Source: a virus | IMG/VR virus record: IMGVR_UViG_3300030451_005783 | Reading direction: 5' to 3' (one strand) | Length of the DNA: 64,000 bases | In this document: piece after piece, positions 11,658 to 32,467 of the stretch | How the letters are laid out: each line of letters begins with the position of its first letter | Position numbering within the stretch: the stretch's first letter is position 1 | Made by a program: the position numbers and the translations under genes | The notes under the pieces: generated by a model | Database searches by the model: none | Told to the model about the DNA's origin: nothing | Seen by the model: only the letters and a program-made list of their open reading frames with translations

Positions 11658-11666
11658 GGGATAATA

Positions 11667-12056: not shown

Positions 12057-12057
12057 T

Positions 12058-14284: not shown

Positions 14285-14286
14285 TC

Positions 14287-15099: not shown

Positions 15100-15106
15100 G
15101 TGATGT

Positions 15107-19013: not shown

Positions 19014-19810
19014 TATTAGGGTCTAGTGGACAGGTTGGGAATGCCTTAAAGAATTTTTATGGCAATAGTGCTGTTGGTTGTGATATGGTTGAGTCAGAAA
19101 ACGAAGATTTGCGATATCACACAACACAAATAGAGAAAAAAATTTCACAAGCAGACTTTATACATTTTATGGCATTTGATGTAGGTGGTTCGAGATACTT
19201 ACAAAAATATCAAAATACTTTTGAGTTTATTGATAATAATATGAGAATCATGCAAAATACTTTTAGCCTTATTAAAAAACACAATAAGCCTTTTATTTTT
19301 GCTTCTAGTCAAATGTCTAATATGGACTATTCTTCATATGGAACTTTAAAAAGAGTGGGTGAATGGTATACTAAAATATTGGGTGGCATCACTGTAAAGT
19401 TTTGGAATGTATATGGTATTGAGCATGATTTAGAAAAGTCTCATGTAATTACTGACTTTATAATCAAGGCAAAAGATAGTGGTGTTATTGATATGATGAC
19501 AGACGGTACAGAGGAAAGACAGTTTTTGTATAGCGAAGATTGTTGCGAGGCTTTAGATGTTCTTAAAACCAATTATGATACTATAGACAGAAATCGTGAA
19601 TTACATATTACTAATCATAAATGGAGCACAATATTAGATGTGGCTAATGAAGTTGTCAAACATTTTCCGGCAAAAGTCATACCAAATTCTAAGAAAGATA
19701 TGGTGCAACAAAACAAAAGAAACGAACCAGATCCATACATATTAGAATATTGGCAACCAAAAACCTCTTTAGCTGATGGTATTAAAAAAATATGTGAACA
19801 TTATGTATGA
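19001..19810 (+). CDS. NAD-dependent epimerase/dehydratase
   Basis: ILGSSGQVG, FASS, YGTLK, FWNVYG, RQFLYSED. Confidence 0.8.
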   Translation: MRYLILGSSGQVGNALKNFYGNSAVGCDMVESENEDLRYHTTQIEKKISQADFIHFMAFDVGGSRYLQKYQNTFEFIDNNMRIMQNTFSLIKKHNKPFIFASSQMSNMDYSSYGTLKRVGEWYTKILGGITVKFWNVYGIEHDLEKSHVITDFIIKAKDSGVIDMMTDGTEERQFLYSEDCCEALDVLKTNYDTIDRNRELHITNHKWSTILDVANEVVKHFPAKVIPNSKKDMVQQNKRNEPDPYILEYWQPKTSLADGIKKICEHYV

Positions 19811-20528
19811 TTTATCTATACCAGAAAATATTAAAAAGCTTATTTTTGGAAAAAGTGTGGCGATTGTCGGTCCTGCTGGATATCTACAGGATAAAGGTAG
19901 CGGACACATCATTGATAATCACGAAATTATTATTAGGCCAAATTATTTTTCTCTACCCAAAAACACCCATAAAGACTATGGATCAAGAACAGACATCATG
20001 TACCATAATATGGCATCTTGTTATTTGGATGGATTAAAAGAACAAATTAATAATAATCCTAAAGATTTTTGTAATCTAAAAGCTGTGATAGGGTCATCTA
20101 TAAAAGCCAGTAATGCAGATTCAAACTATATGCAATGGCCCGATGATCATATAAGTGAATGTGCTAATAATTTTAGTCTCTTAAACACACCCTGTTCGCA
20201 TATTGATTACTGGTGGGTTGGTGTGGCTAATTACAAAAAGGTTTATCATCGTGTTGGCGGAGAGCCATACACAGGTATTAATGCTATATTTATTACAATG
20301 TGTTGCCAACCATCATCTGTTTATTTGACGGGTTTTGATTTTTATACAGGAGATTTGCTTTATGTTGATGGTAGCTTGGCTAACGTAGACAAGAATCAAG
20401 AAAAAAGAAATAGGGGTGGCTCTCATGGTTTTCATGCCACAAACAAAAATAAACAGTATGTTAAAAACTGGTACAATACACACACATTTGTTAGTGTAGA
20501 CGATACTCTTAAAAATATATTAGCATGA
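19803..20528 (+). CDS. GT29 (eukaryote-type sialyltransferase)-like protein
   Basis: Sialylmotif L-like VAIVGPAGYLQDKGSGHIIDNHEIIIRPN...DYGSRTD; sialylmotif S-like PYTGINAIFITMCCQPSSVYLTGFDF. Confidence 0.75.
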   Translation: MYDLSIPENIKKLIFGKSVAIVGPAGYLQDKGSGHIIDNHEIIIRPNYFSLPKNTHKDYGSRTDIMYHNMASCYLDGLKEQINNNPKDFCNLKAVIGSSIKASNADSNYMQWPDDHISECANNFSLLNTPCSHIDYWWVGVANYKKVYHRVGGEPYTGINAIFITMCCQPSSVYLTGFDFYTGDLLYVDGSLANVDKNQEKRNRGGSHGFHATNKNKQYVKNWYNTHTFVSVDDTLKNILA

Positions 20529-21277
20529 TGTTATATTTACGGCCAAAAACCTGCATCTTTCTTACCGTTAGAACAGGATCTTCTCGTCTACCCAATAAAT
20601 CTATTTTAAATCTATGTGGTCAACCAACCATAAAATACTTGATAGACAATTTAAAAAAATCTAAACAATCCAATGGGCTAGTTCTTTGCACCACAACAAA
20701 TAAAGAAGATGACATTCTTTGTAATATAGCTAACGATTGTAATATAAAATATTTTAGAGGTAGTTCCGATGATAAACTTTATCGTTGGCTAGGAGCGTGT
20801 CAGAAATTTGATGTTGATTTTTTTGCTAATGTTGATGGAGATGATTTGTTTTTTGATTATGAATTAGCAGATCATATTTTGTTACAGAGCAAAAACAGTG
20901 CTGTAGATTTTATAGACGGTCAAGGATATTTATATAATGATGCATATGGAATTTCGCATCAAGCACTCAAAAAAGTATGTAATATTAAAACTACAGAAGA
21001 TACAGAATATATTAAGCCACATTTTATTAAAGCTAATTTAAATATAGAATTAGTAAAAAACTATAATGATAAGTGGAAAAAGGGCAAAGCAAGAATGACT
21101 TTAGATTATCCGGAAGATTTTACCTTTTTTGAAACGGTTATATCTGCAATAAAACCACAAGAAATATCCTTTGACAATGTTCTAAAATACTTGCATGACA
21201 ATCCAAATACAGTTAATATAAACTACGCACAAGAAGCAAAATGGTCACAAAATCAAAAGAGGCAGTTTAAATTATGA
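20525..21277 (+). CDS. SpsF/NeuA-like CMP-nonulosonate cytidylyltransferase
   Basis: VRTGSSRLPNK, CTTTNKEDD, YFRGSSDD, NVDGD, RMTLDYPEDF. Confidence 0.85.
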   Translation: MMLYLRPKTCIFLTVRTGSSRLPNKSILNLCGQPTIKYLIDNLKKSKQSNGLVLCTTTNKEDDILCNIANDCNIKYFRGSSDDKLYRWLGACQKFDVDFFANVDGDDLFFDYELADHILLQSKNSAVDFIDGQGYLYNDAYGISHQALKKVCNIKTTEDTEYIKPHFIKANLNIELVKNYNDKWKKGKARMTLDYPEDFTFFETVISAIKPQEISFDNVLKYLHDNPNTVNINYAQEAKWSQNQKRQFKL

Positions 21278-22443
21278 AATCTTGGAGATTTCAAACCAAT
21301 GAATTATTATATGTGTCAGAAGTTTTAAAGAGTGGTTTCGGTGCTTCTGAAACAGGTACATTTTGCGAAAAGCTGGAAAAGGCTTTTGCAGAAGAACATA
21401 AACAAAATTATGCAATAGGGTTTAATTCAGGAACCTCAACCCTTCATGCTGCGTTGGAATCTTTTGGTGTCAAGGAAGGCGATGAAGTTATCATTCCAGC
21501 ATTAACTGTTGCCATGTGTGGTTACGCTGTTACTCATGCCAATGCTACACCTGTATACGCAGATGTATGTAAAGATACGTTTTTGATTGACCCTGTAGAT
21601 ATACAGCGTAAAATTACCACAAAAACAAAAGCTATAATGCCTGTTCATCTATATGGACTAGTATGCAATATGGAAGAAATACAGCGGATTGCACAGGAGT
21701 ATGGTCTTTATATAATAGAAGACTGTGCTCAATGTTTCTTAGGAACAGATGGTAGAGGCAGACTAGCTGGTACTATGGGTGATGTCGGAAGCTGGAGTTT
21801 TGAAAATTCCAAACATCTTTCCTGTGGAGATGGCGGAATTGTTACAACCAATAATGAAACTCTAGCAGAATTTATGAGACAGTATGGTGGGGTAGGCTTT
21901 AAAAACATTACTGCGTCTAGCGGAAAGGTAAGAATATCTAGAGATAAATTCCAAAACCCTAATTGGAAAAGACACAATATATTGGCTTATAATTATAGAC
22001 TGCCTGAGATATGTGCGGCAGTAGCCCTGTCTCAAGTTGAAAAAATACATGAGTTGTGCGAAAAAAGAAGACTAATGGGAAAAGCATATCTAGAAATTAT
22101 TAATTCAAGCAATTCGAACATTTTAATTCCACAATATACCCCTCAAGACTATACACATGCGTATTACACTTTTGCTGCATTATTTAATGGAGAGCAATAT
22201 AATATAACATGGCAAGACTTTAGAGAAAAATATATTGAATTTGGTGGAGACGGTATTTATGCTGCATGGCAGCTTGTATATAATGAACCGTGTTTTAAAA
22301 ATCAAAAAATAGGTTGGGGTAGAGCACCAATTGCAGAAAAATTACAAAAAAATATGATGCAATTTACTTGTAATCAAGCAAATGAAACAGAAAGAGAATT
22401 ACAAAAAGACTGTTTGTATAAAACTCTTGAGTATTTTACATGA
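21274..22443 (+). CDS. DegT/DnrJ PLP-dependent sugar aminotransferase
   Basis: NSGTSTLH, PVHLYG, IIEDCAQ, SFENSKHLSCGDGG, YNYRLPEI. Confidence 0.9.
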   Translation: MKSWRFQTNELLYVSEVLKSGFGASETGTFCEKLEKAFAEEHKQNYAIGFNSGTSTLHAALESFGVKEGDEVIIPALTVAMCGYAVTHANATPVYADVCKDTFLIDPVDIQRKITTKTKAIMPVHLYGLVCNMEEIQRIAQEYGLYIIEDCAQCFLGTDGRGRLAGTMGDVGSWSFENSKHLSCGDGGIVTTNNETLAEFMRQYGGVGFKNITASSGKVRISRDKFQNPNWKRHNILAYNYRLPEICAAVALSQVEKIHELCEKRRLMGKAYLEIINSSNSNILIPQYTPQDYTHAYYTFAALFNGEQYNITWQDFREKYIEFGGDGIYAAWQLVYNEPCFKNQKIGWGRAPIAEKLQKNMMQFTCNQANETERELQKDCLYKTLEYFT

Positions 22444-23117
22444 ATAGAAAAATAGTTATTACTGGTAGCGAGGGCTTGATAGGACAGCATTTAAAGTCCC
22501 ATCTAAAACAATATGAGATTATACCTCTTGATATTGCTTTGGGGCATGATTTGACTGACACTAAGTTTGTAGAAGATTTTTTTAAACAAAACAAGCAAAT
22601 ATATTCAACCATAATATTACATGCTTACAATCCACTACCCCTAAAAGACAGCAAGAAAATAGAACCTGTTGATTTCTCTATATCTGAAATAAAAGAATAT
22701 ATGGATGTAAATGTATTGAGTGCTTTTGATGTCTGTCGTAATTACATAAAAAATAACGAGCAGGGACGTATTATTAATGTGTCTTCTTTATACGGAGAAG
22801 TTTCTCCAAAACATCATATTTATAACAATTTTACCAAACATATTGGATATAGTTTATCTAAAGGTTCTATCATAATGCTAACAAAATATTTAGCAACATA
22901 CTACCCTAGATTTAATATCAATACAGTAATACTGGGTGGGATTTATCAAAAAGAATTTGATGAATCTTTTGTACGAAAATATAGTCGGCACACACCTAAA
23001 AAAAGAATGATGGGTCTGTCTGAAATGATCCCTTGTTTTGAGTTTTTGCTTAATGAAAAATCTACATATGTAACAGGAACCGAAATTAAAGTTGATGGAG
23101 GTTGGACAGCATGGTAG
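22440..23117 (+). CDS. SDR oxidoreductase, PtmA-like
   Basis: ITGSEGLIG, NVSSLYG, YSLSK (YxxxK), VDGGWTAW. Confidence 0.8.
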   Translation: MNRKIVITGSEGLIGQHLKSHLKQYEIIPLDIALGHDLTDTKFVEDFFKQNKQIYSTIILHAYNPLPLKDSKKIEPVDFSISEIKEYMDVNVLSAFDVCRNYIKNNEQGRIINVSSLYGEVSPKHHIYNNFTKHIGYSLSKGSIIMLTKYLATYYPRFNINTVILGGIYQKEFDESFVRKYSRHTPKKRMMGLSEMIPCFEFLLNEKSTYVTGTEIKVDGGWTAW

Positions 23118-23956
23118 ATTTCACAACTAAGGATCTTTATCTGATAGGCGAAATAGGTATTAATCATAATGGAGATATACAAATAGCTAAAAGGCTAATA
23201 GATGCTGTTCATGCTTGTGGTTGGAACTGTGCTAAATTTCAAAAACGAAATCCTGATGTTTGTGTACCAGAACATCAAAAGTCTGTTATTAAAGATACTC
23301 CTTGGGGACAGATGACGTATCTTGATTATAAACATAAAATAGAATTTAGCCAAAAACAATATGGGTTAATTGATCAATATTGTAAGAGCAAACCTATTGA
23401 TTGGACAGCTTCGGTATGGGACTTAGATAGTCTTGAGTTTCTTATGGAATACGAACCTCCTTTTATTAAAATAGCGTCTGCATTAGTAACTAATATAGAA
23501 CTATTGACAGAAGTATGTAAAACAAACATACCTATAATGTTTTCAACCGGTATGTGTGAATTATCAGAAGTTGATACAGCTGTTGATTTAATCTCTAAGC
23601 ATACAGATAACTTTGCTTTAATGCACACCAATTCTAGCTATCCAACACCAGTTGAAGAATTAAATCTACAACTAATCCCCTTTTACAAAAATAGATATAA
23701 ATGTACTGTGGGATATTCTGGACATGAATATGATATGGAGCCTACTGTGATTGCTTGTTATTTAGGGGCGAATATTATTGAAAGACATATTACTTTGTCT
23801 CACGACATGTGGGGAACAGATCAAAAAGCAAGTTTAGAAATTAAGGCAATGGATATGTTATATGGCAGACTTAAAGATGTGCCACTAATGATGGGCTCAT
23901 GCAATAAAACAGTTACTCCTAGTGAAATTAATATAAGAAAAAAATTAAGGGGATAG
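23111..23956 (+). CDS. neuB: Nonulosonate (NeuB-family) synthase without the C-terminal antifreeze-like domain
   Basis: EIGINHNGD, AKFQKR, FSTGM, HTNSSYP, GYSGHE, IIERHITL. Confidence 0.9.
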   Translation: MVDFTTKDLYLIGEIGINHNGDIQIAKRLIDAVHACGWNCAKFQKRNPDVCVPEHQKSVIKDTPWGQMTYLDYKHKIEFSQKQYGLIDQYCKSKPIDWTASVWDLDSLEFLMEYEPPFIKIASALVTNIELLTEVCKTNIPIMFSTGMCELSEVDTAVDLISKHTDNFALMHTNSSYPTPVEELNLQLIPFYKNRYKCTVGYSGHEYDMEPTVIACYLGANIIERHITLSHDMWGTDQKASLEIKAMDMLYGRLKDVPLMMGSCNKTVTPSEINIRKKLRG

Positions 23957-23958
23957 TT

Positions 23959-24861
23959 ATGGAATTAATAGTATTTATTAAATGCTCCGGGCCTAACGTA
24001 AATACAGACAATTTAAAAGACACACTACTATCTTTTCATCAAAAGAACAAGGATGTCGATTATAAATTTTATCTTGTTATAGACGCTCAGTTACTAAATT
24101 TTGTAAATAATTTACTATTGAATGAAATAGGTTGGGACAAAGTATTAAAAATTGAACTCGCTGGCAGTAATACATGGCCTCAAGATTTTAATATTTTTTT
24201 TGAGCAATACAAGGATGCTGCTGAATGGCTTTTAATTTCACATGACGACACACTATATATTACAGATAACTGGTTTAAAGAAATGATAAAACCAGTTTTG
24301 CATATACAAGAGTCTATAGGATGGATGACCTCAACAAATGAAGCTCCGACACTACAGGGTAGGCCAGATTATGGACCAAGACCCGGACATCACAAAGATC
24401 ATGAAAACTGGCCTTGGATGTTCGATCTTCACAATCAGTCTTTAGAGAATCGAGATCTGCCTAAAAAATCAGTAATGGTGCATGGTGTTTTTTCTTGTGT
24501 AATGTTAATCCCTATGAAATCAATGAAAATAGTAGGACCGTGTGAAAACTGGTCATTGTATACTATGCTTATTGACGAAGATTGGTCGTTACGAGCATTG
24601 CAGAATAATTTAAAAAATGTTTGGGTTCCTAACGTAAAACATTTACATTGGCTACGCCCACAAAGCAGGAAAGTTCTCAATAGATATGAACAAGAATGTC
24701 ATCAAAAGTTTGAAAATAAATGGGGATATAAAACAGGTAAAAAACAAGGGCCACAAGGTTGTTCTATAGATATAAACGACTTTAGAGAACAATACAAAGA
24801 CACCCTTATACCTTGGTCATCATACAGAAATAGTTACGATTGGGATTATATTGATGAATGA
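23959..24861 (+). CDS. GT2-like glycosyltransferase
   Basis: LLISHDD, LIDEDWSLRA, NVKHLH. Confidence 0.65.
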   Translation: MELIVFIKCSGPNVNTDNLKDTLLSFHQKNKDVDYKFYLVIDAQLLNFVNNLLLNEIGWDKVLKIELAGSNTWPQDFNIFFEQYKDAAEWLLISHDDTLYITDNWFKEMIKPVLHIQESIGWMTSTNEAPTLQGRPDYGPRPGHHKDHENWPWMFDLHNQSLENRDLPKKSVMVHGVFSCVMLIPMKSMKIVGPCENWSLYTMLIDEDWSLRALQNNLKNVWVPNVKHLHWLRPQSRKVLNRYEQECHQKFENKWGYKTGKKQGPQGCSIDINDFREQYKDTLIPWSSYRNSYDWDYIDE

Positions 24862-25441
24862 TTTTTGGAAAAATGTATGGGACAGCAAAGGTCTGAGTGA
24901 TAATGACGACTTGCTATTTCTTAATGGCTATGAACATTTAAAAGTAGATATTAGCAGTAAATTCATAGCTGATGATATTGCAGATCTGTTAAATCTTGAG
25001 GTTGGAGACTCTATTCTAGAAGTGGGTTGTGGTGCTGGTTTTTTGTCTAGAGAGTTTGTAACAAAATACAATTACTATGGCGTAGATTATTCTAAACCAT
25101 TGATTGAAAAACATAAAAGGCTTTTTACAAATCATAACGTAAGCCATGCAGAAGCTAATGCTATACCATTCAAGAATCGACAATTTGATCATTGTTTTTG
25201 TTTTGGTGTTTTTCAGTATCTTCCAAATTTAGAGTATGCTAAATGTATGATTTCAGAAATGAAGCGTATTGTTTCAAAAAACATATTACTCGGAGATCTT
25301 AAAGAAAAACCCACTAGACCAAACCATCTACCATGCCCAAAAAATATGATAGAAAAATTAGGATTCACCATATTAAATATTAGACATTTAAATGACAGCA
25401 ATAGATATCATGGCGTTTTACATACAGAGGATACACAATGA
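24854..25441 (+). CDS. Class I SAM-dependent methyltransferase
   Basis: ILEVGCGAG, YGVDYS, AEANAIPF...FD. Confidence 0.85.
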   Translation: MNDFWKNVWDSKGLSDNDDLLFLNGYEHLKVDISSKFIADDIADLLNLEVGDSILEVGCGAGFLSREFVTKYNYYGVDYSKPLIEKHKRLFTNHNVSHAEANAIPFKNRQFDHCFCFGVFQYLPNLEYAKCMISEMKRIVSKNILLGDLKEKPTRPNHLPCPKNMIEKLGFTILNIRHLNDSNRYHGVLHTEDTQ

Positions 25442-25995
25442 TATGGAATGAAATAGTATGTTTGGGAGATTCTATAACCTATGGAGCTAGAGACGAATAT
25501 GGTCGTTCTCCATCAATAGAATTGTCTAAGATAATGAAGAATCAGACAAATGAAATTTATGTTTGTCACAACTATGGCATTAGTGGAGAAACTAGCGTAG
25601 ACCTTTTAAAAAGAACATGGTCATGCGTAAGTAAACATAAGGCAGCTAAGATAGCAACCTTAATGATTGGAACCAACGACACACAACAAGCTATTCCTGC
25701 ACACATTTACGAAGACAATCTAAGACAAATTATTGATATATGTAAAATAAATGGATTGTTTATAATTATGTCTACTTTACCTAAATTACATTTTACTCCA
25801 TTATACTTTAAAAATTCTAAACTTATTGAAAAATACAATGGCATTATACATAAACTTGCTAAAGAATTGAATTTAGACTTAACAGATATGTCAGGTATAG
25901 AAAAGTATTATGTGGACGGTGTTCATTTCAATAATTACGGACATATAGAAATTGCTAGAAGATGGTCACAAACAATATTAAACGCTCAAACTTAA
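25438..25995 (+). CDS. SGNH/GDSL hydrolase (esterase or O-acyltransferase)
   Basis: LGDSIT, GISGETS, IGTND, DGVH. Confidence 0.85.
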   Translation: MIWNEIVCLGDSITYGARDEYGRSPSIELSKIMKNQTNEIYVCHNYGISGETSVDLLKRTWSCVSKHKAAKIATLMIGTNDTQQAIPAHIYEDNLRQIIDICKINGLFIIMSTLPKLHFTPLYFKNSKLIEKYNGIIHKLAKELNLDLTDMSGIEKYYVDGVHFNNYGHIEIARRWSQTILNAQT

Positions 25996-26912
25996 AAACA
26001 ATAGTGATTGGTTGTACTCCTTTAGCACAAAAAATCACACACACCCTAAAAGAAATATCGAATCTGGTAGGTGTTGTAAATTTAGAGCCATCAGCTGCTA
26101 TAAATAAGTGCAACTATTGCAGCACAATAGGCCATAATGAATTAACTCATTGGACTCAAGACATAAATAGTAAACAAACAAAATGTTGGATACAGAGCCT
26201 ATCTCCAGATATTATAATACAATGTGGTTGGTCACAAATTTTTAATCAAGACATTTTACAAATACCAAAAAAATACTGTTTGGGCATTCATCCTTCTCCG
26301 TTACCAATGGGCAGGGGTGCTGCAATATTAAATTGGAAGATTATTGAAAGCAATGGTAAAAATATAGATTGGGGGAATAGCATTTTTGTAATGGAGAAAC
26401 AAACAGACGTAGGTGATATTATTGCCCTTAAAAACTTTACCATCGAAACAAGAGATAACATACAGACGGTATATGATAAAGTATGTTCTACTAGTGTAGA
26501 TATGATAAAAGAAGTTATAAAAGATATAGATAACAATACAGAATTGTTAATTAAACAAGACGACGACCTTGCTGACAGATATTATAAAAGAAAACCTGAA
26601 GACGGCATGATAGATATTAATTGGAGTTCTATAAAAATAAATGATTATATTAGAGCGTTGACACACCCTTTTCCTGGAGCTTTTTTAAATAGTAGTATAG
26701 GAAAATTGACTTTTTGGAAATCTAAGATATTATCTAGTAATGAGATAGCGGAGCCCGGCACCATAATGTCTATTTCTTCAAAAGGCTTGAGATTAAAGTG
26801 TGGTAATAATACCGACATATTAATTCAAAGAGTATCTATAGACAATATAGAATATTGGGCAGATGAATTTATGTCAGTATCAAAATTAAAAATAGGTCAA
26901 AATATTTTATAG
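25962..26912 (+). CDS. Fmt-like sugar N-formyltransferase
   Basis: GIHPSPLPMGRGAA, DVGDII, IRALTHPFPGA; start uncertain (overlaps upstream gene by 34 nt). Confidence 0.8.
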   Translation: MVTNNIKRSNLKTIVIGCTPLAQKITHTLKEISNLVGVVNLEPSAAINKCNYCSTIGHNELTHWTQDINSKQTKCWIQSLSPDIIIQCGWSQIFNQDILQIPKKYCLGIHPSPLPMGRGAAILNWKIIESNGKNIDWGNSIFVMEKQTDVGDIIALKNFTIETRDNIQTVYDKVCSTSVDMIKEVIKDIDNNTELLIKQDDDLADRYYKRKPEDGMIDINWSSIKINDYIRALTHPFPGAFLNSSIGKLTFWKSKILSSNEIAEPGTIMSISSKGLRLKCGNNTDILIQRVSIDNIEYWADEFMSVSKLKIGQNIL

Positions 26913-26920
26913 GTTTATTA

Positions 26921-27868
26921 ATGAATATATTAGTCACAGGATCTGAAGGTGTTGTTGGGTCTAAAGTATCTGAAATATTAAACAAACGAGGTCATGATGT
27001 ATTTGGTGTGGATCTCTATCACACCCCTAAAAGATATGGTCATGGTCTAGGTACTGTTGATAACGAAAATTATTTCAGATGCGATATTGCTGAATATAGA
27101 CAAATACAAGACGTAATAGAACACACATCTCCCGATCTGATATATAACTGTGCGGCAGAATTTGGTAGATGGAACGGAGAATACTTTTATGAAAAAGTTT
27201 GGAAAAGTAATGCAATAGGCACAAAAAATATTATTAGACTTCAAGAAAAAAGAGGATTTAAATTAATACACACCTCCTCATCAGAAGTATATGGGGATTA
27301 TGGTGATGTAATGTACGAAGATGTAGTATCCAATGTAGCTATACATCAAATGAATGATTATGCAATGTCTAAAAGAGTAAACGAAATGCAGATAGCTAAC
27401 TCTAAAACTATGTATAATACTTCTAGTGTAATTGTTAGATTATTCAACACATATGGGCCCGGAGAATGGTATCATCCCTTTAGAAGTGTTAATTGTATTT
27501 TTGTATATAATCTTTTACACAATTTACCCATCACTGTTTATAAAGGACACACCAGAACAAGTACATATGTTTATGACTGCGCTGAGACTCTGTGTAATAT
27601 TGCAGATAATTTTAATGAAGGACAAACATATAACATAGCTAGCGATCAGCATCATTCTATAGAAGAATTGGTAGAGCATATATTGAAACATACTGGAGCC
27701 TCTAGCACATTGGTTAATTATAAAGACGAATTAGAAATTTTAACCACAAAAGATAAAACAGTAAATGCTGCAAAAAGTAAAAGTGATTTAAAACACACGG
27801 ACTCTATATCTTTAGAAGAGGGTGTGAGACTTACTGTAGAATGGATGAAGGATTACTATAGGCTATAA
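26921..27868 (+). CDS. NAD-dependent epimerase/dehydratase
   Basis: VTGSEGVVG, SSSEVYG, YAMSK, RLFNTYGPG. Confidence 0.85.
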   Translation: MNILVTGSEGVVGSKVSEILNKRGHDVFGVDLYHTPKRYGHGLGTVDNENYFRCDIAEYRQIQDVIEHTSPDLIYNCAAEFGRWNGEYFYEKVWKSNAIGTKNIIRLQEKRGFKLIHTSSSEVYGDYGDVMYEDVVSNVAIHQMNDYAMSKRVNEMQIANSKTMYNTSSVIVRLFNTYGPGEWYHPFRSVNCIFVYNLLHNLPITVYKGHTRTSTYVYDCAETLCNIADNFNEGQTYNIASDQHHSIEELVEHILKHTGASSTLVNYKDELEILTTKDKTVNAAKSKSDLKHTDSISLEEGVRLTVEWMKDYYRL

Positions 27869-27871
27869 AAA

Positions 27872-28948
27872 ATGATAATACATGTAATAGGAGCAAGACC
27901 CAACTATCCTAAAGCGGCTCCATTGATACGGGCTTTGCAAGATCAAAAACAGTTGGTTGTTCATACATCGCAACACTATGATGCCAATATGTGTCAAGAT
28001 ATGTTAAAGGGTCTGGGTATGTCTGATCCAGACATATATTTAGAAAAATTTAATCAATCCGCAAATGATTATTATTTTTATAAAACCAACAGAATGTCAT
28101 ACATGACCAATGAGTTATATAAAATATTTATGCGATATAAACCATCAATGGTTTTTGTTTATGGAGATATAGACTCTACACTTGCAGCAGCTATGGCAGC
28201 TAAAACAAGTAACTGCAAAGTGGCTCATATAGAATCAGGTTTGAGAAGTTTTGATGACGAAATGCCTGAAGAAATTAATAGAAAAATTGTTGACAGTATA
28301 TCAGATTTTTGTTTTGTTACTGAACAAAGTGGTATTGATAATCTCAAAGGTTGTAGAAATAAAATATTTTTTGTTGGCAATACCATGATTGATAGTTTGG
28401 TGTGGATGCAAAAAGAAGGATTGCTAGTAAAAGAAAACAATAATAAAAAATATATAGTATTAACCGCACATAGACCCTCTAATGTTGACGACCCAAGTCA
28501 GTTAAAGAATATTGTAAGCCTTTGCGAAAATATTACTTCTCGTCATGTAGATATAGTATGGCCAGTACACCCAAGAACAAAAACCAATTTGAAAAAATAC
28601 AATTTGTGGGATTTAATTGTAGATAATAAAAAAATTGAAACATTAGGTCCTATGAACTATATTGAATTTATACAGCTGGTATACAATAGTTATGCGGTGG
28701 TTACAGACTCTGGGGGTATACAAGAGGAAACTAGCTTTATGGGAATCCCATGTTATACTATTAGAAAAAATACAGAAAGACCAGTAACGATTGATGAAGG
28801 CACGAATCGCCTTGTTAAATTACAAAATAATAGTTTGTCAAACTTTATTACAGATGAGATCAACAACATTAGAAAAAAAACTACCATACCTTTGTGGGAT
28901 GGTAAAGCTTCAGATAGAATCAGAAAAATAATCCTTAAAAATATGTAA
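27872..28948 (+). CDS. wecB: UDP-GlcNAc 2-epimerase, non-hydrolysing type
   Basis: GARPN, HTSQHYD, HIESGLRSFD, MPEEINR, TDSGGIQEE, TERP. Confidence 0.9.
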   Translation: MIIHVIGARPNYPKAAPLIRALQDQKQLVVHTSQHYDANMCQDMLKGLGMSDPDIYLEKFNQSANDYYFYKTNRMSYMTNELYKIFMRYKPSMVFVYGDIDSTLAAAMAAKTSNCKVAHIESGLRSFDDEMPEEINRKIVDSISDFCFVTEQSGIDNLKGCRNKIFFVGNTMIDSLVWMQKEGLLVKENNNKKYIVLTAHRPSNVDDPSQLKNIVSLCENITSRHVDIVWPVHPRTKTNLKKYNLWDLIVDNKKIETLGPMNYIEFIQLVYNSYAVVTDSGGIQEETSFMGIPCYTIRKNTERPVTIDEGTNRLVKLQNNSLSNFITDEINNIRKKTTIPLWDGKASDRIRKIILKNM

Positions 28949-28958
28949 AGAAAATAAA

Positions 28959-29768
28959 ATGTTATACAATATAGGTATTATAGGTCGCGGCTTTGTTGGA
29001 TCAGCATTAAACAAATATTTGTCTCAAAAGTTTAATACATTGACATACGACATTGCTGATAGCATAGACATGGTAGAAGGATACGATAATGTTGTTAATA
29101 ATAGTGATATTATTTATGTGTGCGTACCTACACCTAGTAGTGAGGATGGATCATGCGATATATCTTATTTAGAAAAAACATTAAGTTTAATTAATGAGGT
29201 CGCTAATGCAAAATGTTTGGTGCTTATAAAATCTACTGTTGTTCCTAACACAACACAAAGACTAAGAAAAAAATATGAGAAATGTAATATTGTATTTAAT
29301 CCGGAGTTTCTAACAGAAAGAACAGCATACGAAGATGTCGCCAACGCCACTAGTCATGTAATAGGTGTCGAGGATGATAAGACAGCAGAATATCTTGTAG
29401 AGTATCATCGTGCTGCTTGGCCTGATCCCAATTGTAAATACTTTGTAACAGAGACATCTATTGCTGAAATGGTCAAATATGCGACCAATACCTTTTTTGG
29501 AATTAAAGTATCTTTTGCTAATGTTTTGTACGACATTTGTAAAAGTCTTAATATAGACTATAATAAAATGTCTCAACATATGCAAGACATAGACCCAAGA
29601 GTAGGAACAGTACACTGGCAAGTTCCTGGGCCAGATGGCTTAAGAGGTTTTGGCGGTAAGTGTCTACCCAAAGAACTGTCAGGTATGATAGATATATGCA
29701 ACAAACATAATGTAAATTGTGATCTACTATCAACAACCAAGGAATACAATAAACAGATCAGAGGATAA
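28959..29768 (+). CDS. UDP-glucose/GDP-mannose dehydrogenase family, short form lacking the C-terminal domain
   Basis: GIIGRGFVG, IKSTV, FNPEFL, GFGGKCLPK. Confidence 0.85.
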   Translation: MLYNIGIIGRGFVGSALNKYLSQKFNTLTYDIADSIDMVEGYDNVVNNSDIIYVCVPTPSSEDGSCDISYLEKTLSLINEVANAKCLVLIKSTVVPNTTQRLRKKYEKCNIVFNPEFLTERTAYEDVANATSHVIGVEDDKTAEYLVEYHRAAWPDPNCKYFVTETSIAEMVKYATNTFFGIKVSFANVLYDICKSLNIDYNKMSQHMQDIDPRVGTVHWQVPGPDGLRGFGGKCLPKELSGMIDICNKHNVNCDLLSTTKEYNKQIRG

Positions 29769-29769
29769 A

Positions 29770-30537
29770 ATGATTGTTTGCGAGATAGGATTAAATCATT
29801 TGGGATCTGAAGAATATTCAGATTATTATTTAGATATACTTCTATCCACACAATGTGACGCTATTACTTATCAGATTAGAGAACCAGACTTTTATAAAAA
29901 GCTTAATAATAGAGATAATTTTAGACCACTTCCTATTGATGCATATAAAAAAATTATTAATAGAATACAAAGCAAAAACAAAAAAGCTGGCATTGCACTA
30001 GCTGATCACACCTTGTTGGATAAATTTAATGAATTAGGTGCGGATTTTTATAAAGTGTTAAGCTGGGATTTATCAAACTACGATTTTATAGACAAAATAT
30101 TGGATTGCCATAAGCCAGTATACATATCAACAGGCATGAGTAATATAGAAGAGATTAAGGACTTATGTAACAGATATCAAAACCATCCGTTTAAAAATCT
30201 AATTACCCTAATACATACGCAACTTAGCTACTATATTTCAGACACCAACCTAAAAGCTATAAATTATTTAAAAAGAATATGCAAAACACCTATAGCATTC
30301 GGAAATCATTGTGAAAATATAAATGTCATATATACATCTGTCGCTATGGAGCCTTCAGATTATTTTATTTACGTTAAAGGCAATACAGCACCTAAACATC
30401 CAGACGAACATCACGCTATAAATATAAATAGTATCTCTAAGGTTGTAGACAACATATTATGTATGAATACAGCTCTAGGTACTGAAATTAAACTTAAGAT
30501 GACCAACAAAATAGATGAGGAGAATCTTACAATATGA
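29770..30537 (+). CDS. Second, divergent NeuB-like protein
   Basis: GAGGA then ATG 29770; EIGLNHLG, ISTGMS, FGNH; KFQ becomes TYQ and the IExH His is missing. Confidence 0.7.
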   Translation: MIVCEIGLNHLGSEEYSDYYLDILLSTQCDAITYQIREPDFYKKLNNRDNFRPLPIDAYKKIINRIQSKNKKAGIALADHTLLDKFNELGADFYKVLSWDLSNYDFIDKILDCHKPVYISTGMSNIEEIKDLCNRYQNHPFKNLITLIHTQLSYYISDTNLKAINYLKRICKTPIAFGNHCENINVIYTSVAMEPSDYFIYVKGNTAPKHPDEHHAININSISKVVDNILCMNTALGTEIKLKMTNKIDEENLTI

Positions 30538-31178
30538 AATCTATTATTTTAGCTGGATCTCGGGGCATAGGTAAAGGTATAGCAGATCAACTTAGCTCTA
30601 TTAGTTCTGAAATAGTAATTACTTCATCTAAATCTTTGGATACTTCTAATATAGAAAATGTACAAGACTTTGTTAAAGAGCATAAAGAAACCGATGTGTT
30701 GGTTTTAAATACAGCAGGCCCACCAGCTAAGAACTTTTATGATATTACAGAAAATGAATGGCTCCAATATTACTATCAATTGTTCTATAGTTTTGTTTAT
30801 ATCTTGCAAAATTTAAAAATAAACAACAACGGATATATTTTTCTTATATCTTCTTTTAATATTAAAGAACCAGACCCAAAACTTATTCTGTCTAATTCTT
30901 ATCGAATAGCTTTTACAAGCATTCTTAAATCGTTAACCAAACAATATGCACAAAATAATATTAGTTGTATTAATATTGCTCCTGGACCTATAGATACAGA
31001 TAGGCTAAGAGGACTTGTGGATGATGTTGAAGCTTTAGGCAAAACCCTTCCAATGAAAAGAGTTGGTCATGTTGATGAAATTGGTCTTTTCGTTAAATCT
31101 ATTATAGATAATAATATTAAATATTTAACTGGAGTAACTATTAATTTTGATGGCGGACACTCTAACTATGTGTTATAA
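30534..31178 (+). CDS. SDR oxidoreductase (atypical; SNSYR at the YxxxK site)
   Basis: LAGSRGIG, NTAGPP, IAPGPIDTDR, FDGG. Confidence 0.75.
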   Translation: MKSIILAGSRGIGKGIADQLSSISSEIVITSSKSLDTSNIENVQDFVKEHKETDVLVLNTAGPPAKNFYDITENEWLQYYYQLFYSFVYILQNLKINNNGYIFLISSFNIKEPDPKLILSNSYRIAFTSILKSLTKQYAQNNISCINIAPGPIDTDRLRGLVDDVEALGKTLPMKRVGHVDEIGLFVKSIIDNNIKYLTGVTINFDGGHSNYVL

Positions 31179-31184
31179 TAAATT

Positions 31185-31481
31185 ATGATCATATATGTAG
31201 ATATAGACGAAACTATTTGTGCAACTCCTGATGACAGAGATTACAACAAATCCAAACCTCTGTATGATAGAATAGCAAAAATCAATGATTTGTACAACAA
31301 AGGACACACTATAATATATTGGACTGCTCGTGGCACTACCACAGGTATAGATTGGCGTAAGTTAACAGAACAACAATTAAACAAGTGGCTTGTTAAATAC
31401 CATGAATTACATCTTGGTAAACCTGTATACGATTTATTTATAGACGATAAGAATATTAACAGTGAAAGGTTTTTTCAATGA
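31185..31481 (+). CDS. Small HAD-family phosphatase (capsule-biosynthesis type)
   Basis: VDIDETI, YWTARG, GKP, FIDDK. Confidence 0.8.
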   Translation: MIIYVDIDETICATPDDRDYNKSKPLYDRIAKINDLYNKGHTIIYWTARGTTTGIDWRKLTEQQLNKWLVKYHELHLGKPVYDLFIDDKNINSERFFQ

Positions 31482-32467
31482 AAACAGCATTAGTATGTGG
31501 AGCAGGTGGTTTTATAGGATCACACCTTGTTAAAAGATTAAAGGCAGATGGTTACTGGGTTAGGGGTGCTGATGTAAAATTTCCGGAATTTTCTAAAACA
31601 GAAGCAGACGACTTTCTAATCGGTGACTTATGTAATTTTAGAAATGCTGAACATGCAATGACTGTAGGCAACAATCAAGCTTTTGATGAGGTATATCAAT
31701 TGGCAGCAGACATGGGTGGTGCCGGATATATTTTTACTGGAGAAAATGATGCAAGTATTATGCACAATTCTGCACAGATCAATCTTAATATAGGATCTAT
31801 CGCCGTTGGTAAAAAGGTGGGTAAATTATTTTATAGTAGCAGCGCTTGCATGTATCCTGCATACAATCAAGAAGATCCTGATAATCCAAAATGTAGCGAG
31901 GATTCCGCATATCCAGCCGCACCAGACAGTGAATATGGATGGGAAAAATTATTTAGTGAAAGATTTTATTTAGCCTTGCAAAGAAATCATGGATTAGACG
32001 TAAGTATTGCTAGGTATCATAATATATTTGGTCCAGAAGGCACTTGGGATGGAGGCAGAGAGAAAGCTCCCGCTGCACTGTGTAGAAAAGTCATTAGAGC
32101 AGAAGAAGGTGGGATTATTGATATTTGGGGAACAGGTAAGCAAACCCGATCTTTTCTTTATATTGATGAATGTGTAGAAGGCACTCTGCGATTGATGAGA
32201 TCAGATTTCTCTGGCCCTGTCAACATTGGTAGTGAGGAAATGGTTAGTATTAATGAATTTGCAGAAATGATTATAGAAATTTCTGGCAAAGATGTTAAAT
32301 ATCAAAATGTAGACGGGCCGATGGGTGTTAACGGTCGAAACTCAGATAACAAGTTGTTACAGGAAAACTTGGGCTGGCAACCATCCATGACACTTATGAA
32401 TGGACTATATAAAACATATAAGTGGATTGAAGAACAAAATGCCAAATCATCAGAAAATACTAAATGA
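31478..32467 (+). CDS. GDP-mannose 3,5-epimerase (GME)-like
   Basis: CGAGGFIGSH, QLAADMGG, SSSACMYP, YGWEK, REKAPAALCRK, MGVNGRNSDN. Confidence 0.85.
   Translation: MKTALVCGAGGFIGSHLVKRLKADGYWVRGADVKFPEFSKTEADDFLIGDLCNFRNAEHAMTVGNNQAFDEVYQLAADMGGAGYIFTGENDASIMHNSAQINLNIGSIAVGKKVGKLFYSSSACMYPAYNQEDPDNPKCSEDSAYPAAPDSEYGWEKLFSERFYLALQRNHGLDVSIARYHNIFGPEGTWDGGREKAPAALCRKVIRAEEGGIIDIWGTGKQTRSFLYIDECVEGTLRLMRSDFSGPVNIGSEEMVSINEFAEMIIEISGKDVKYQNVDGPMGVNGRNSDNKLLQENLGWQPSMTLMNGLYKTYKWIEEQNAKSSENTK

What the first reader, a model, noticed from the sequence alone, without database searches (positions are those of the whole stretch)
20525..31481. Near-complete nonulosonate pathway with formyl and methyl tailoring but no recognisable hydrolase step
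Seen: dehydratase-type SDRs, DegT, a PtmA-like SDR, NeuB, an SpsF-like enzyme, an N-formyltransferase, a methyltransferase, an SGNH protein and a HAD phosphatase. Established: Leg/Pse routes run dehydratase, aminotransferase, N-acyltransferase, nucleotide hydrolase, NeuB, CMP-transferase, while KDN and 9-phosphate routes use NeuB plus a HAD. The 2-epimerase here has non-hydrolysing WecB motifs, and I see no PseG/NeuC-type hydrolase or acetyltransferase. Inference: an unusual, possibly N-formylated nonulosonate made by a variant route.
Basis: partly seen in the sequence, partly recalled or inferred. Interest (0 to 1): 0.65.

Follow-up and report, generated by a model that had tools for sequence, protein, structure and literature searches.

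The report
Composite phage sialic-acid-like sugar island
A large marine phage carries two interleaved sugar gene sets: a widespread but untested cassette that probably makes an amino-substituted sialic-acid-like sugar from a sugar phosphate, so it needs no hydrolase, and a separate mobile UDP-sugar set that holds the formyltransferase-like gene.

Summary
The genes are real, intact and tightly packed, on a Tara Oceans phage contig. They are not one Leg/Pse-type pathway with a missing hydrolase.

Module A:
- It comprises a CMP-transferase, DegT, a classical SDR, a SAF-less NeuB and a 98-aa HAD phosphatase, plus a NeuB2-SDR2 accessory pair.
- The set recurs as one overlapping operon in related phages, with the HAD abutting NeuB.
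- In bacteria the same short NeuB clade sits beside a KdsC/KDN-9-P-phosphatase-type HAD in 60 of 80 loci, and never beside a 2-epimerase.
- The aminotransferase slot is filled by three different PLP families: DegT, class IV and class III.
- This points to a phospho-sugar (KDN-9-P-like) route with an added oxidation and transamination step. Such a route needs no nucleotide hydrolase.

Module B:
- It comprises a GT-A transferase, a methyltransferase, SGNH, a formyltransferase-like gene, a UDP-GlcA-decarboxylase-like SDR, a non-hydrolysing WecB and a truncated UGDH-like gene.
- It is a separately mobile unit that also occurs without DegT or NeuB1.
- The formyl tailoring therefore more likely belongs to a UDP-sugar, though N-formylation of the nonulosonate is not excluded.
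- The "dehydratase" is UXS-like, and the unassigned ORF is a glycosyltransferase, not a hidden hydrolase.

The scan has already flagged the core cassette on other DNA. No paper I could search describes it.

The parts
19776..20528 (+). GT29 (sialyltransferase)-like gene. Its stop overlaps the start of the CMP-transferase. It is the likely transferase for the CMP-sugar. It lies just outside the finding.
   Evidence: Pfam PF00777 at 7e-9, 35.9 bits against a cut-off of 23. Homologues lie next to the cassette in L110, L174, L191 and L199.
20525..21277 (+). Module A: CMP-ulosonate cytidylyltransferase.
   Evidence: PF02348 at 4e-14. Only weak KdsB/PseF similarity, far below the curated cut-offs. 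It is 37-55% identical and syntenic in L002, L003, L004, L010 and L105.
21274..22443 (+). Module A: DegT-family PLP aminotransferase.
   Evidence: PF01041 at 6e-79. LegC scores 195 and PseC 181 bits against cut-offs above 420. It is 79% identical to the DegT of L105, which has no module B within 10 kb. The PLP lysine motif is present.
22440..23117 (+). Module A: classical SDR (PRK09186/PtmA-like; related to gluconate-5-dehydrogenase).
   Evidence: The TGxxxGxG and YxxxK motifs are present. It abuts NeuB in 24 viral and 38 cellular loci.
23102..23956 (+). Module A: SAF-less NeuB-family synthase (NeuB1).
   Evidence: PF03102 at 1.5e-65. All NeuB motifs are kept. It falls in the short-NeuB clade, with SH-like support 98.
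23959..24861 (+). Module B: GT-A fold glycosyltransferase with an invariant HDD motif.
   Evidence: No Pfam hit. The AlphaFold model has pLDDT 93. Foldseek finds SpsA, TarP, WrtF and hyaluronan synthase.
24851..25441 (+). Module B: class I SAM methyltransferase.
   Evidence: It travels as GTA-MT-SGNH in L191, L199 and L208.
25438..25995 (+). Module B: SGNH hydrolase. It could be an esterase, or a de-N-acetylase ahead of the formyltransferase.
   Evidence: PF13472 at 2e-20, with the catalytic blocks intact. It is 64-74% identical in L177, L180, L183 and L184.
25962..26912 (+). Module B: Fmt/ArnA-type formyltransferase-like protein (N and C domains). The catalytic Asn is replaced by Gly.
   Evidence: The top PDB hits are ArnA formyltransferase domains at 2.6e-25. 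A GIH motif replaces NxH.
26921..27868 (+). Module B: extended SDR of the UDP-glucuronate decarboxylase (UXS) type.
   Evidence: It matches Mth373 (8w3u/9ar1) at 1e-84. See PMC12820599.
27872..28948 (+). Module B: non-hydrolysing UDP-GlcNAc 2-epimerase (WecB).
   Evidence: TIGR00236 scores 264 bits against a cut-off of 210. NeuC scores 63 bits against 236.
28959..29768 (+). UGDH-like dehydrogenase. It has the NAD motif and the catalytic Cys but no UDP-binding C-terminal domain.
   Evidence: The short form is conserved in L003 and L008. The complete phage G003 has no PF03720 domain anywhere.
29770..30537 (+). Module A accessory: divergent NeuB-like TIM barrel (NeuB2). It lacks the KFQ lysine and the ERH histidine.
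   Evidence: In L105 it sits inside the overlapping core operon. Atlas clusters of this family are mostly viral.
30534..31178 (+). Module A accessory: second classical SDR, always paired with NeuB2.
   Evidence: The pair is found in L100, L105, L132, L191, L195, L208 and in the SAR11 locus L025.
31185..31481 (+). Module A: minimal C0-type HAD sugar-phosphate phosphatase.
   Evidence: The DxDxT, T, K and DD motifs are present. It matches 9iqw, the phage HY126 D-arabinose-1,5-bisphosphate phosphatase AfhF, at 9e-13. Further fold matches are GmhB, KdsC and KDN-9-P phosphatase. It abuts NeuB1 in 18 of 83 viral loci.
31478..32467 (+). Extended SDR, GDP-fucose-synthase-like, overlapping the HAD stop. 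It travels with the cassette in some relatives.
   Evidence: It is 61-63% identical in L002 and L010.

Best explanation
The stretch holds two nested gene sets.

Module A consists of the CMP-transferase, DegT, SDR, SAF-less NeuB1 and mini-HAD, with NeuB2-SDR2 as accessories. It most likely makes a CMP-activated, amino-substituted KDN-like nonulosonate in these steps:
1. NeuB1 condenses PEP with a hexose 6-phosphate.
2. The HAD removes the terminal (9-) phosphate.
3. The SDR oxidises one hydroxyl and DegT transaminates the resulting carbonyl. This happens either on the free ulosonate, as in Kdo8N synthesis, or earlier on the hexose phosphate, as in NtdC/NtdA.
4. The cytidylyltransferase activates the product for the adjacent GT29-like transferase.

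Because the precursor is a sugar phosphate, no NDP-sugar hydrolase or hydrolysing 2-epimerase is needed.

Module B consists of the GT-A, methyltransferase, SGNH, formyltransferase-like gene, UXS-like decarboxylase and WecB, with or without the truncated UGDH-like gene. It is a separately mobile unit inserted between NeuB1 and NeuB2-SDR2-HAD. It most likely builds and transfers a second, UDP-linked, modified amino sugar.

Shown here: gene identities, synteny, co-occurrence and motifs. Inferred: the substrates, the order of steps and the position of the amino group.
For: Evidence that module A is one unit:
- In the closest phage relatives the order is CTP-aminotransferase-SDR-NeuB1-miniHAD and the genes are contiguous.
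- In L105 seven genes overlap end to end: CTP-DegT-NeuB2-SDR2-SDR-miniHAD-NeuB1.
- The aminotransferase slot between CTP and SDR is filled by three families. It holds DegT here, a class IV aminotransferase in the complete 186-kb phage G003 (Pfam 1e-39), and a class III aminotransferase in bacteria.
- Across loci, an SDR and an aminotransferase occur together near NeuB in 15 viral and 21 cellular loci.

Evidence for the phospho-sugar route:
- 60 of 80 cellular loci of this short-NeuB clade have a KdsC-family HAD within 4 kb on the same strand, and 0 of 80 have a WecB/NeuC homologue.
- That HAD scores above the TIGR01670 cut-off. It scores 149 bits on the B. thetaiotaomicron KDN-9-P phosphatase model, which has a cut-off of 180.
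- 30 of 86 viral loci have the mini-HAD within 4 kb, and in 18 it abuts NeuB1.
- Mini-HAD paralogues also follow KdsA and a PfkB heptose-kinase-like gene.
- The closest solved relative is a phage arabinose-1,5-bisphosphate phosphatase. GmhB, KdsC and KDN-9-P phosphatase are further fold matches.
- G003 has the cassette but no Epimerase_2 gene at all.
- NeuB1 lacks the SAF domain and lies across a 99-support branch from the SAF-bearing NeuBs of canonical modules.
- The KDN-9-P route from Man-6-P and PEP is established biochemistry (PMC6200933).

Evidence that module B is separate:
- SDRe1-SGNH-FT-WecB recurs at 64-74% (SGNH), 65-73% (SDR) and 48-52% (FT) identity in other marine phage contigs. 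There it sits in a heptose-gene context, with no DegT or NeuB1 within 8 kb.
- It carries its own GT-A transferase.
- The DegT here is 79% identical to that of L105, which lacks module B.
Against: - No enzyme of this cassette has been assayed, so substrates are inferred from neighbourhood only.
- In this window the HAD lies 7.2 kb from NeuB1, next to NeuB2-SDR2.
- The mini-HAD family clearly serves several pathways, and its closest solved relative acts on a sugar 1,5-bisphosphate. Adjacency alone therefore does not fix its substrate.
- Module B lies within 10 kb of a NeuB in 14 of 21 loci and of a mini-HAD in 15 of 21. The two modules may therefore cooperate on one sugar or one glycan.
- A formyltransferase::CTP_transf_3 fusion exists among distant homologues (P0312).
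- Other phage nonulosonate modules carry PIG-L plus a formyltransferase N-domain next to NeuB. N-formylated nonulosonates are thus plausible in these phages.
- Nine viral and 17 cellular loci have the SDR but no detected aminotransferase.
Confidence: 0.5

Rival explanations
1. There is one cooperative pathway. Module A makes an amino-nonulosonate by the phospho-sugar route. The formyltransferase-like enzyme of module B, and perhaps the methyltransferase and SGNH, then tailor that same sugar. The product would be an N-formylated, methylated nonulosonate.
For: - The only aminotransferase in the island is the DegT of module A, and a formyltransferase needs an amine.
- Module B is inserted inside the nonulosonate gene set here. 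It lies near NeuB, mini-HAD and NeuB2 in L191, L194-196, L199 and L208.
- A distant homologue is fused to a CMP-transferase domain (P0312).
- CTP-PIG-L-formyltransferase-NeuB modules exist in related phages.
Against: - The loci where module B neighbours NeuB2/NeuB mostly lack the formyltransferase.
- The formyltransferase-containing form, SDRe1-SGNH-FT-WecB, occurs without DegT or NeuB1 within 8 kb.
- In a Melioribacter genome the formyltransferase follows a PIG-L deacetylase in an NDP-sugar operon. This suggests its amine comes from de-N-acetylation of a UDP-hexosamine.
- The gene order FT then UXS-like SDR mirrors the ArnA domain order, which acts on UDP-sugars.
Confidence: 0.27
2. This is the first reader's reading: a Leg/Pse-like NDP-sugar route. 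It runs dehydratase, DegT, N-formyltransferase in place of an acetyltransferase, a missing hydrolase, NeuB, then CMP-transferase. The hydrolase would be supplied by the host or by a cryptic gene.
For: - DegT scores best against the LegC and PseC models, although far below their cut-offs.
- A UDP-GlcNAc 2-epimerase and extended SDRs are present.
Against: - The SDR is UXS-like, not a 4,6-dehydratase.
- WecB is of the non-hydrolysing type.
- NeuB1 lacks the SAF domain and is not in the clade of SAF-bearing synthases.
- The only unassigned ORF is a GT-A transferase.
- The cassette works in a complete phage genome that has no Epimerase_2 gene.
- The aminotransferase slot is filled elsewhere by class III and class IV enzymes, which are not NDP-sugar aminotransferases.
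Confidence: 0.07
3. Module A makes plain KDN (NeuB1, HAD, CMP-transferase). DegT and the SDR serve a different sugar, for example an Arn-like UDP-4-amino-pentose made together with the UXS-like SDR, the UGDH-like gene and the formyltransferase.
For: - The set UGDH-like, UXS-like decarboxylase, DegT (ArnB model, 169 bits) and ArnA-like formyltransferase matches the logic of the Ara4FN pathway.
- Many cellular loci have only KdsC-NeuB, with neither an SDR nor an aminotransferase.
Against: - DegT and the SDR overlap NeuB1 and each other, and they keep that position in phages that lack the whole of module B.
- Three unrelated aminotransferase families occupy the same slot beside SDR-NeuB.
- Formyltransferase-containing module B copies elsewhere have no DegT nearby.
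Confidence: 0.08

Closest known systems
CMP-KDN pathway of Bacteroides thetaiotaomicron (BT1714 synthase, BT1713 phosphatase, CMP-KDN synthetase) and Prymnesium parvum; animal NANS-NANP-CMAS (PMC6200933)
   Same: - A NeuB-family synthase is paired with a dedicated HAD phosphatase and a cytidylyltransferase.
- No UDP-GlcNAc hydrolysing epimerase is present.
- The cellular relatives of NeuB1 sit next to a KdsC/KDN-9-P-phosphatase-type HAD.
   Different: - An SDR and an aminotransferase are integral parts of the cassette, so the product should carry an amino group.
- The phage phosphatase is a 98-aa mini-HAD of another subfamily (TIGR01689/AfhF-like).
- NeuB1 lacks the SAF domain.
- An extra NeuB2-SDR2 pair is present.
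- The substrate has not been tested.
Kdo8N biosynthesis in Shewanella (KdnB oxidises Kdo at C8, KdnA transaminates; from my own knowledge, with KdnA structure 5k8b among the PDB hits)
   Same: - It uses the same logic of oxidising and then transaminating an already built 3-deoxy-ulosonic acid before CMP activation.
- KdnA is a DegT-family enzyme.
   Different: - The oxidoreductase here is a classical SDR, not a metal-dependent alcohol dehydrogenase.
- KdnA is not the best DegT match.
- The sugar has nine carbons rather than eight.
- The position and timing of amination are unknown.
Canonical legionaminic and pseudaminic acid pathways (PseB/C/H/G/I/F; LegB/C/H/G/I/F)
   Same: A DegT aminotransferase, a NeuB-family synthase and a CMP-transferase lie in one gene cluster that serves a nonulosonate.
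   Different: - There is no PseB/LegB-type 4,6-dehydratase.
- There is no N-acetyltransferase.
- There is no PseG/LegG hydrolase.
- The synthase has no SAF domain.
- All curated Pse/Leg models score far below their cut-offs.
ArnA/ArnB/Ugd route to UDP-4-formamido-L-arabinose, and UDP-xylose synthase Mth373 (PMC12820599), as comparators for module B
   Same: - A formyltransferase-like gene is immediately followed by a UDP-GlcA-decarboxylase-type SDR, matching the ArnA domain order.
- A UGDH-like gene is nearby.
- The top solved matches are the ArnA formyltransferase domain and Mth373.
   Different: - The genes are separate, not fused.
- The catalytic Asn of the formyltransferase is replaced by Gly.
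- The UGDH-like protein lacks its UDP-binding domain.
- No ArnB travels with the module in other phages.
- WecB and SGNH are constant partners instead.

Membership tests
Canonical Leg/Pse NDP-sugar nonulosonate pathway | PseB/LegB-type UDP/GDP-GlcNAc 4,6-dehydratase | tested here: not met
   The 26921-27868 product matches the UDP-GlcA decarboxylase Mth373 at 1e-84 and has SSE, not TDE. The LegB model scores 79 bits against a cut-off of 475.
Canonical Leg/Pse NDP-sugar nonulosonate pathway | Nucleotide-releasing hydrolase or hydrolysing 2-epimerase (PseG, LegG/NeuC) | tested here: not met
   - The only Epimerase_2 gene is a WecB equivalog: 264 bits against a cut-off of 210, with NeuC at 63 bits.
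- The unassigned ORF is a GT-A transferase.
- No such gene appears among the other scanned ORFs.
- The complete relative G003 has none.
Canonical Leg/Pse NDP-sugar nonulosonate pathway | N-acetyltransferase (PseH/LegH) | tested here: not met
   No GNAT or hexapeptide-repeat acyltransferase hit in any scanned ORF.
Canonical Leg/Pse NDP-sugar nonulosonate pathway | PseI/LegI/NeuB synthase with C-terminal SAF domain, scoring above the curated cut-off | tested here: not met
   The protein is 284 aa and has no SAF domain. NeuB_NnaB scores 220 against a cut-off of 400, and PseI scores 162 against 340. It lies in a separate clade.
Phospho-sugar (KDN-9-P / Neu5Ac-9-P type) nonulosonate route | Dedicated HAD phosphatase genetically coupled to the synthase | tested here: met
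   - The mini-HAD abuts NeuB1 in 18 of 83 viral loci.
- A KdsC-type HAD lies within 4 kb in 60 of 80 cellular loci.
- In this window the HAD is 7.2 kb downstream, in the same gene run.
Phospho-sugar (KDN-9-P / Neu5Ac-9-P type) nonulosonate route | The synthase uses a hexose 6-phosphate and the phosphatase acts on the 9-phosphate product | not testable with these tools
   This needs enzyme assays. It is inferred only from neighbourhood and from the phosphatase fold matches.
Phospho-sugar (KDN-9-P / Neu5Ac-9-P type) nonulosonate route | The product is nitrogen-free KDN, with no amination enzymes in the unit | tested here: not met
   DegT and the SDR overlap NeuB1. The same slot is filled by class III or class IV aminotransferases in relatives.
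Sugar N-formyltransferase (Fmt/PurN/ArnA superfamily) | Asn-His-Asp catalytic triad | tested here: inconclusive
   His110 and Asp149 are invariant. The Asn position is Gly108 in the window protein and in 10 of 11 aligned homologues. The position was assigned from the HxSLLP motif, from my own knowledge.
Sugar N-formyltransferase (Fmt/PurN/ArnA superfamily) | Formyl_trans_N plus C-terminal domain fold | tested here: met
   PF00551 at 3e-14 and PF02911 at 7e-16. ArnA formyltransferase domains are the top PDB hits at 2.6e-25. Every curated NCBIfam formyltransferase model scores below its cut-off.
Non-hydrolysing UDP-GlcNAc 2-epimerase (WecB) | Score above the curated equivalog cut-off and well above the hydrolysing NeuC model | tested here: met
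   TIGR00236 scores 264 bits against a cut-off of 210. TIGR03568 scores 63 bits against 236.
NeuB-family PEP-condensing synthase (for NeuB2, 29770-30537) | PEP-binding Lys of the KFQ motif and the second metal-binding His of the ERH motif | tested here: not met
   The window protein has TYQ and YFIYV in those places. The SAR11 homologue has the same losses.
UDP-sugar 6-dehydrogenase (for 28959-29768) | Three domains, including the UDP-binding C-terminal domain | tested here: not met
   Only the N and central domains are present. The catalytic Cys is kept. The short form is conserved, and the complete phage G003 has no PF03720 domain.

The most novel reading that the evidence does not exclude
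The conserved SDR plus aminotransferase convert a KDN-type sugar, built from mannose 6-phosphate, into an amino-nonulosonate at a late stage. One possible site is C5, which would give neuraminic acid with no hexosamine precursor. The phage then caps the amine with a formyl group from the Asn-less formyltransferase-like enzyme. The motif-depleted NeuB2 and its SDR would add a further, unknown transformation. This would be a new biosynthetic entry to sialic-acid-like sugars, widespread in marine phages and bacteria.
Probability: 0.15. Interest if true: 0.8.

Novelty: new variant of a known kind. Interest (0 to 1): 0.55.

Why it matters
Nonulosonic acids decorate cell surfaces, flagella and possibly virions, and they shape phage-host and host-microbe recognition.

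A phospho-sugar route with a built-in amination step would be a third logic for making amino-nonulosonates. The two known ones are the hexosamine route (Neu5Ac) and the NDP-sugar routes (Leg/Pse). This cassette is very common in marine metagenomes: thousands of NeuB1-like proteins at 65% identity or more. It is also present in many bacterial phyla.

The swap of three aminotransferase families in one slot makes the idea directly testable with five small soluble proteins.

For this window, the practical lesson is that large phage glycan islands are mosaics of mobile modules. Reading adjacent genes as one pathway can mislead.

Tried and rejected
- Hidden hydrolase: the only unassigned ORF in the stretch (23959-24861) was modelled and is a GT-A glycosyltransferase. 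It is rejected as PseG or NeuC.
- Close relatives of NeuB2 and of the formyltransferase in IMG/VR: single-protein pattern scans found nothing. They were reached later through other routes.
- Whole-genome search of the window's own genome: no genome is held. The window's ENA contig is not held as a handle either.
- B. thetaiotaomicron BT1714 for a direct comparison or tree: the control genome gives a match, but no locus is returned. NeuB1 could therefore not be placed relative to a biochemically proven KDN-9-P synthase.
- Literature: ten searches found no paper on this cassette or on phage nonulosonate synthesis by a phospho route. Several 'neuB' hits were author names. The library is incomplete, so this does not prove absence.
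- PtmA of Campylobacter as a guide to the SDR's role: the match is weak (67 bits against a cut-off of 350), and the paper found gives no mechanism.
- A split-off UDP-binding domain for the truncated UGDH-like gene: none was found in the complete relative.
- Base composition gives no sign that module B is a recent insertion. GC is 0.32-0.34 throughout.

Full report
**What the window is.** All long ORFs but one run on the + strand and are tightly packed. Beyond the sugar genes the window encodes a split DnaE, RecA, DnaB, a primase, a class II ribonucleotide reductase, PhoH and dCMP deaminase. No tRNA genes and no cellular genome are held for it. The same proteins lie on an 88-kb Tara Oceans contig. 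It is a large marine phage, with GC about 0.32 and no compositional break across the island.

**Checking the observation.** Fourteen ORFs fill 20525-31481, with overlaps or gaps of 10 nt or less. Pfam and NCBIfam confirm these genes:
- a CTP_transf_3 cytidylyltransferase;
- a DegT aminotransferase;
- a PRK09186/PtmA-like classical SDR;
- a NeuB domain protein without the SAF domain;
- a SAM methyltransferase;
- an SGNH hydrolase;
- an Fmt/ArnA-like formyltransferase with N and C domains;
- an extended SDR;
- a WecB that passes the non-hydrolysing equivalog cut-off (264 against 210 bits) while NeuC scores 63;
- a 98-aa HAD with all four HAD motifs.

- A UGDH-like protein that keeps GxGxxG and the catalytic Cys but ends about 35 residues after it, so it has no UDP-binding domain.
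- A second, weak NeuB-like protein, NeuB2.
- A second classical SDR.

The remaining unassigned 300-aa ORF has about 75 metagenomic homologues with an invariant HDD motif. It models with pLDDT 93 as a GT-A glycosyltransferase, with SpsA, TarP, WrtF and hyaluronan synthase as matches. It is a transferase, not a hidden PseG- or NeuC-like hydrolase. No acetyltransferase or hydrolysing epimerase appeared in about 50 scanned ORFs of the window.

**The 'dehydratase' is a decarboxylase-type SDR.** The protein from 26921-27868 matches PDB 8w3u/9ar1 at 1e-84. These are Mth373 of Methanothermobacter, co-crystallised with UDP-xylose and assigned as a UDP-glucuronate decarboxylase (PMC12820599). The window protein shares its EFGRW, SSE and YxxxK signatures and lacks the TDE of 4,6-dehydratases. 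The formyltransferase-like gene sits directly upstream, and its best solved matches are ArnA formyltransferase domains. The pair therefore mirrors the ArnA domain order.

**Module A is a conserved cassette.**
- A T4-like marine virus (MH319754) and IMG/VR contigs carry SDR, cytidylyltransferase, DegT, NeuB and HAD side by side, with the HAD directly after NeuB.
- Among 86 viral loci found with a NeuB1 profile, the closest relatives (56-69% identity) repeat the order CTP-aminotransferase-SDR-NeuB1-miniHAD.
- In L105 seven genes overlap end to end: CTP, DegT (79% identical to the window's), NeuB2, SDR2, SDR, miniHAD and NeuB1. NeuB2 and SDR2 therefore belong to this pathway, not to a separate one.
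- In the complete, terminally redundant 186-kb phage G003, the slot between CTP and SDR holds a class IV aminotransferase instead of DegT.

In this window the mini-HAD is separated from NeuB1 by 7.2 kb that contain module B and NeuB2-SDR2.

**The same logic appears in cells.** A profile scan of one genome per species found more than 580 relatives of the short NeuB. They come from Ignavibacteria, Chloroflexi, Chlorobi, Actinobacteria, SAR11, Omnitrophica and a Methanoregula. The 80 best loci show the following:
- 60 have a KdsC-family HAD within 4 kb on the same strand, usually immediately upstream.
- None has a WecB/NeuC homologue there.
- In L054 the order is cytidylyltransferase, split transketolase, class III aminotransferase, PRK09186-like SDR, HAD, NeuB.
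- That HAD passes the KdsC family cut-off. It scores 149 bits on the B. thetaiotaomicron KDN-9-P phosphatase model, which has a cut-off of 180.

So an ensemble of aminotransferase, SDR, HAD, short NeuB and cytidylyltransferase recurs, with non-orthologous replacement of both the aminotransferase (three PLP families) and the phosphatase (KdsC-type against mini-HAD).

A FastTree of 207 NeuB-family proteins from these loci adds two points. It puts NeuB1 in a 13-member, mostly viral clade (support 98) inside the short-NeuB group. It separates the SAF-bearing NeuBs of canonical modules on the other side of a 99-support branch. NeuB2 joins that other side on long branches, so its placement is unsure.

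**What the mini-HAD is.**
- Its closest solved relative (9e-13, 37% identity) is 9iqw, the phage HY126 D-arabinose-1,5-bisphosphate phosphatase AfhF.
- Fold matches continue with BT0820, GmhB, KdsC and KDN-9-P phosphatase.
- Paralogues follow KdsA in L016/L018.
- Paralogues also follow a PfkB heptose-kinase-like gene in L177, L180, L183 and L184.

The common denominator is removal of the terminal phosphate from a higher-carbon sugar. Next to NeuB, that substrate is a nonulosonate 9-phosphate. The established KDN route (Man-6-P plus PEP, then phosphatase, then CMP-synthetase; PMC6200933) needs no nucleotide hydrolase. This explains why none is found.

**What the SDR and aminotransferase do.** This part is inferred. 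An SDR that makes a carbonyl and an aminotransferase that converts it into an amine is the Kdo8N logic (KdnB/KdnA) and the kanosamine logic (NtdC/NtdA); both comparisons come from my own knowledge. KdnA and NtdA are among the DegT's solved relatives, but so are inosose and GDP-perosamine enzymes. Class III and class IV aminotransferases can fill the same slot, which argues against a nucleotide-sugar substrate. I cannot tell whether amination precedes or follows condensation, nor which carbon is aminated.

NeuB2 lacks the KFQ lysine and the ERH histidine, as does its SAR11 homologue. It always accompanies a motif-complete short NeuB. Its role is unknown.

**Module B is separately mobile.**
- Homologues of the window's formyltransferase-like protein (48-54% identity) lie in SDR-SGNH-FT-Epimerase_2 blocks of other marine phage contigs. 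Their neighbours are GT9, HldE-like, PfkB, mini-HAD and carbamoyltransferase genes, and no DegT or NeuB1 lies within 8 kb.
- A scan with the UXS-like SDR found 21 viral loci. Eight have SDRe1-SGNH-FT, with or without WecB. Seven have (GT-A)-MT-SGNH-(UGDH-like)-SDRe1-(WecB) without the formyltransferase, lying near NeuB, mini-HAD and NeuB2-SDR2.
- In a Melioribacter genome the formyltransferase follows a PIG-L deacetylase in an Epimerase_2-SDR-FdtA-RmlD operon near flagellin.

The module thus has its own transferase and a UDP-GlcNAc entry point, and it often has no aminotransferase. The amine may come from de-N-acetylation, with SGNH in the place where cells have PIG-L. I therefore read it as a second, UDP-linked sugar.

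The case is not closed, for four reasons:
- Module B neighbours a NeuB in 14 of 21 loci.
- A distant homologue is fused to a CMP-transferase (P0312).
- CTP-PIG-L-formyltransferase-NeuB modules exist in the same phage group.
- The whole formyltransferase-like family has Gly in place of the catalytic Asn, so even the chemistry is not certain.

**Comparison with what is known.** Module A works like the KDN-9-P or animal sialic acid route with a Kdo8N-like amination added. It fails four of the defining features of the Leg/Pse routes. It also differs from the plain KDN route in that amination genes are integral. I found no paper describing it within the searchable library.

Earlier agents of this scan reached similar readings for the same cassette on other DNA (e1-5411253, e1-5390261, e1-1065211, e1-1151648). 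I treated those as leads, and the evidence above was produced independently here. What this window adds is the mosaic: module B inserted into module A, the NeuB2-SDR2 pair, the truncated UGDH-like gene and the Asn-less formyltransferase-like family.

**Verdict.** The 'missing hydrolase' is explained by a phospho-sugar route rather than by a gap. The formyl tailoring more likely belongs to a second sugar. This is a new variant of a known kind, of moderate to good interest, and it can be tested directly with a handful of small enzymes.

Noticed in passing
window 28959-29768; L003:13323-14180; L008:13332-14147: A UDP-sugar-dehydrogenase-like protein keeps the NAD motif and the catalytic Cys (GGKCLPKE) but lacks the whole UDP-binding C-terminal domain. 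The short form is conserved in other phages. A complete 186-kb relative has no such domain anywhere, so this is not a split gene there. Its substrate may not be a nucleotide sugar.
   Followed up: partly
window 29770-30537 and 30534-31178; L025:1347-2760; L105:7677-9043: A NeuB-like TIM barrel lacks the PEP-binding Lys and one metal-binding His. It is always followed by a classical SDR and always accompanied by a motif-complete short NeuB. The pair occurs in phages and in a SAR11 single-cell genome. Its function is unknown.
   Followed up: partly
window 25962-26912 and homologues P0197-P0311: The whole formyltransferase-like family has GIH where Fmt, PurN and ArnA have the catalytic NxH. His and Asp are kept. 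One distant member is fused to a CMP-transferase (P0312) and one to an epimerase-type SDR fragment (P0272).
   Followed up: partly
L016:10284-11074; L177:5782-6932; L180:3462-4564: Paralogues of the 98-aa mini-HAD follow KdsA in some phage contigs and a PfkB heptose-kinase-like gene in others. There they appear to stand in for KdsC and GmhB respectively.
   Followed up: partly
L025 (uncultured Pelagibacteraceae AG-349-F22), 1-15479: A SAR11 locus holds four NeuB-family genes, including NeuB2-SDR2 homologues (31% and 47% identity), a PhyH dioxygenase, two cytidylyltransferases, DegT and a pyruvyl transferase. Together with the 32% GC, this hints that the phage's host may be SAR11 or a similar low-GC marine bacterium.
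   Followed up: no
L054:3446-5233; L100:4-1500; L103:4845-6400; L109:4283-6100: A split transketolase (N and C halves) travels with the aminotransferase-SDR-HAD-NeuB cassette in many bacteria and in some phages. It might supply a two-carbon (glycolyl-type) unit for acylating the amine.
   Followed up: no
L105:10849-12129; L003:5833-7536; L016:14575-15759: Three unusual genes lie next to the cassette in relatives: a cytidylyltransferase::PEP-mutase fusion (phosphonate tailoring), a B12-binding radical SAM enzyme, and a RuBisCO-large-subunit-like ORF inside a phage glycan island.
   Followed up: no
window 35285-36646: Two adjacent Sulfotransfer_2 genes lie downstream of the sugar genes. This suggests that the glycan built by the island is sulfated.
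   Followed up: no
L105:5015-5752; L123:10838-11803: In other phages, MptE/Maf-like genes (the family of flagellin nonulosonate transferases) take the position that the GT29-like gene holds in this window, next to the cytidylyltransferase or NeuB.
   Followed up: no
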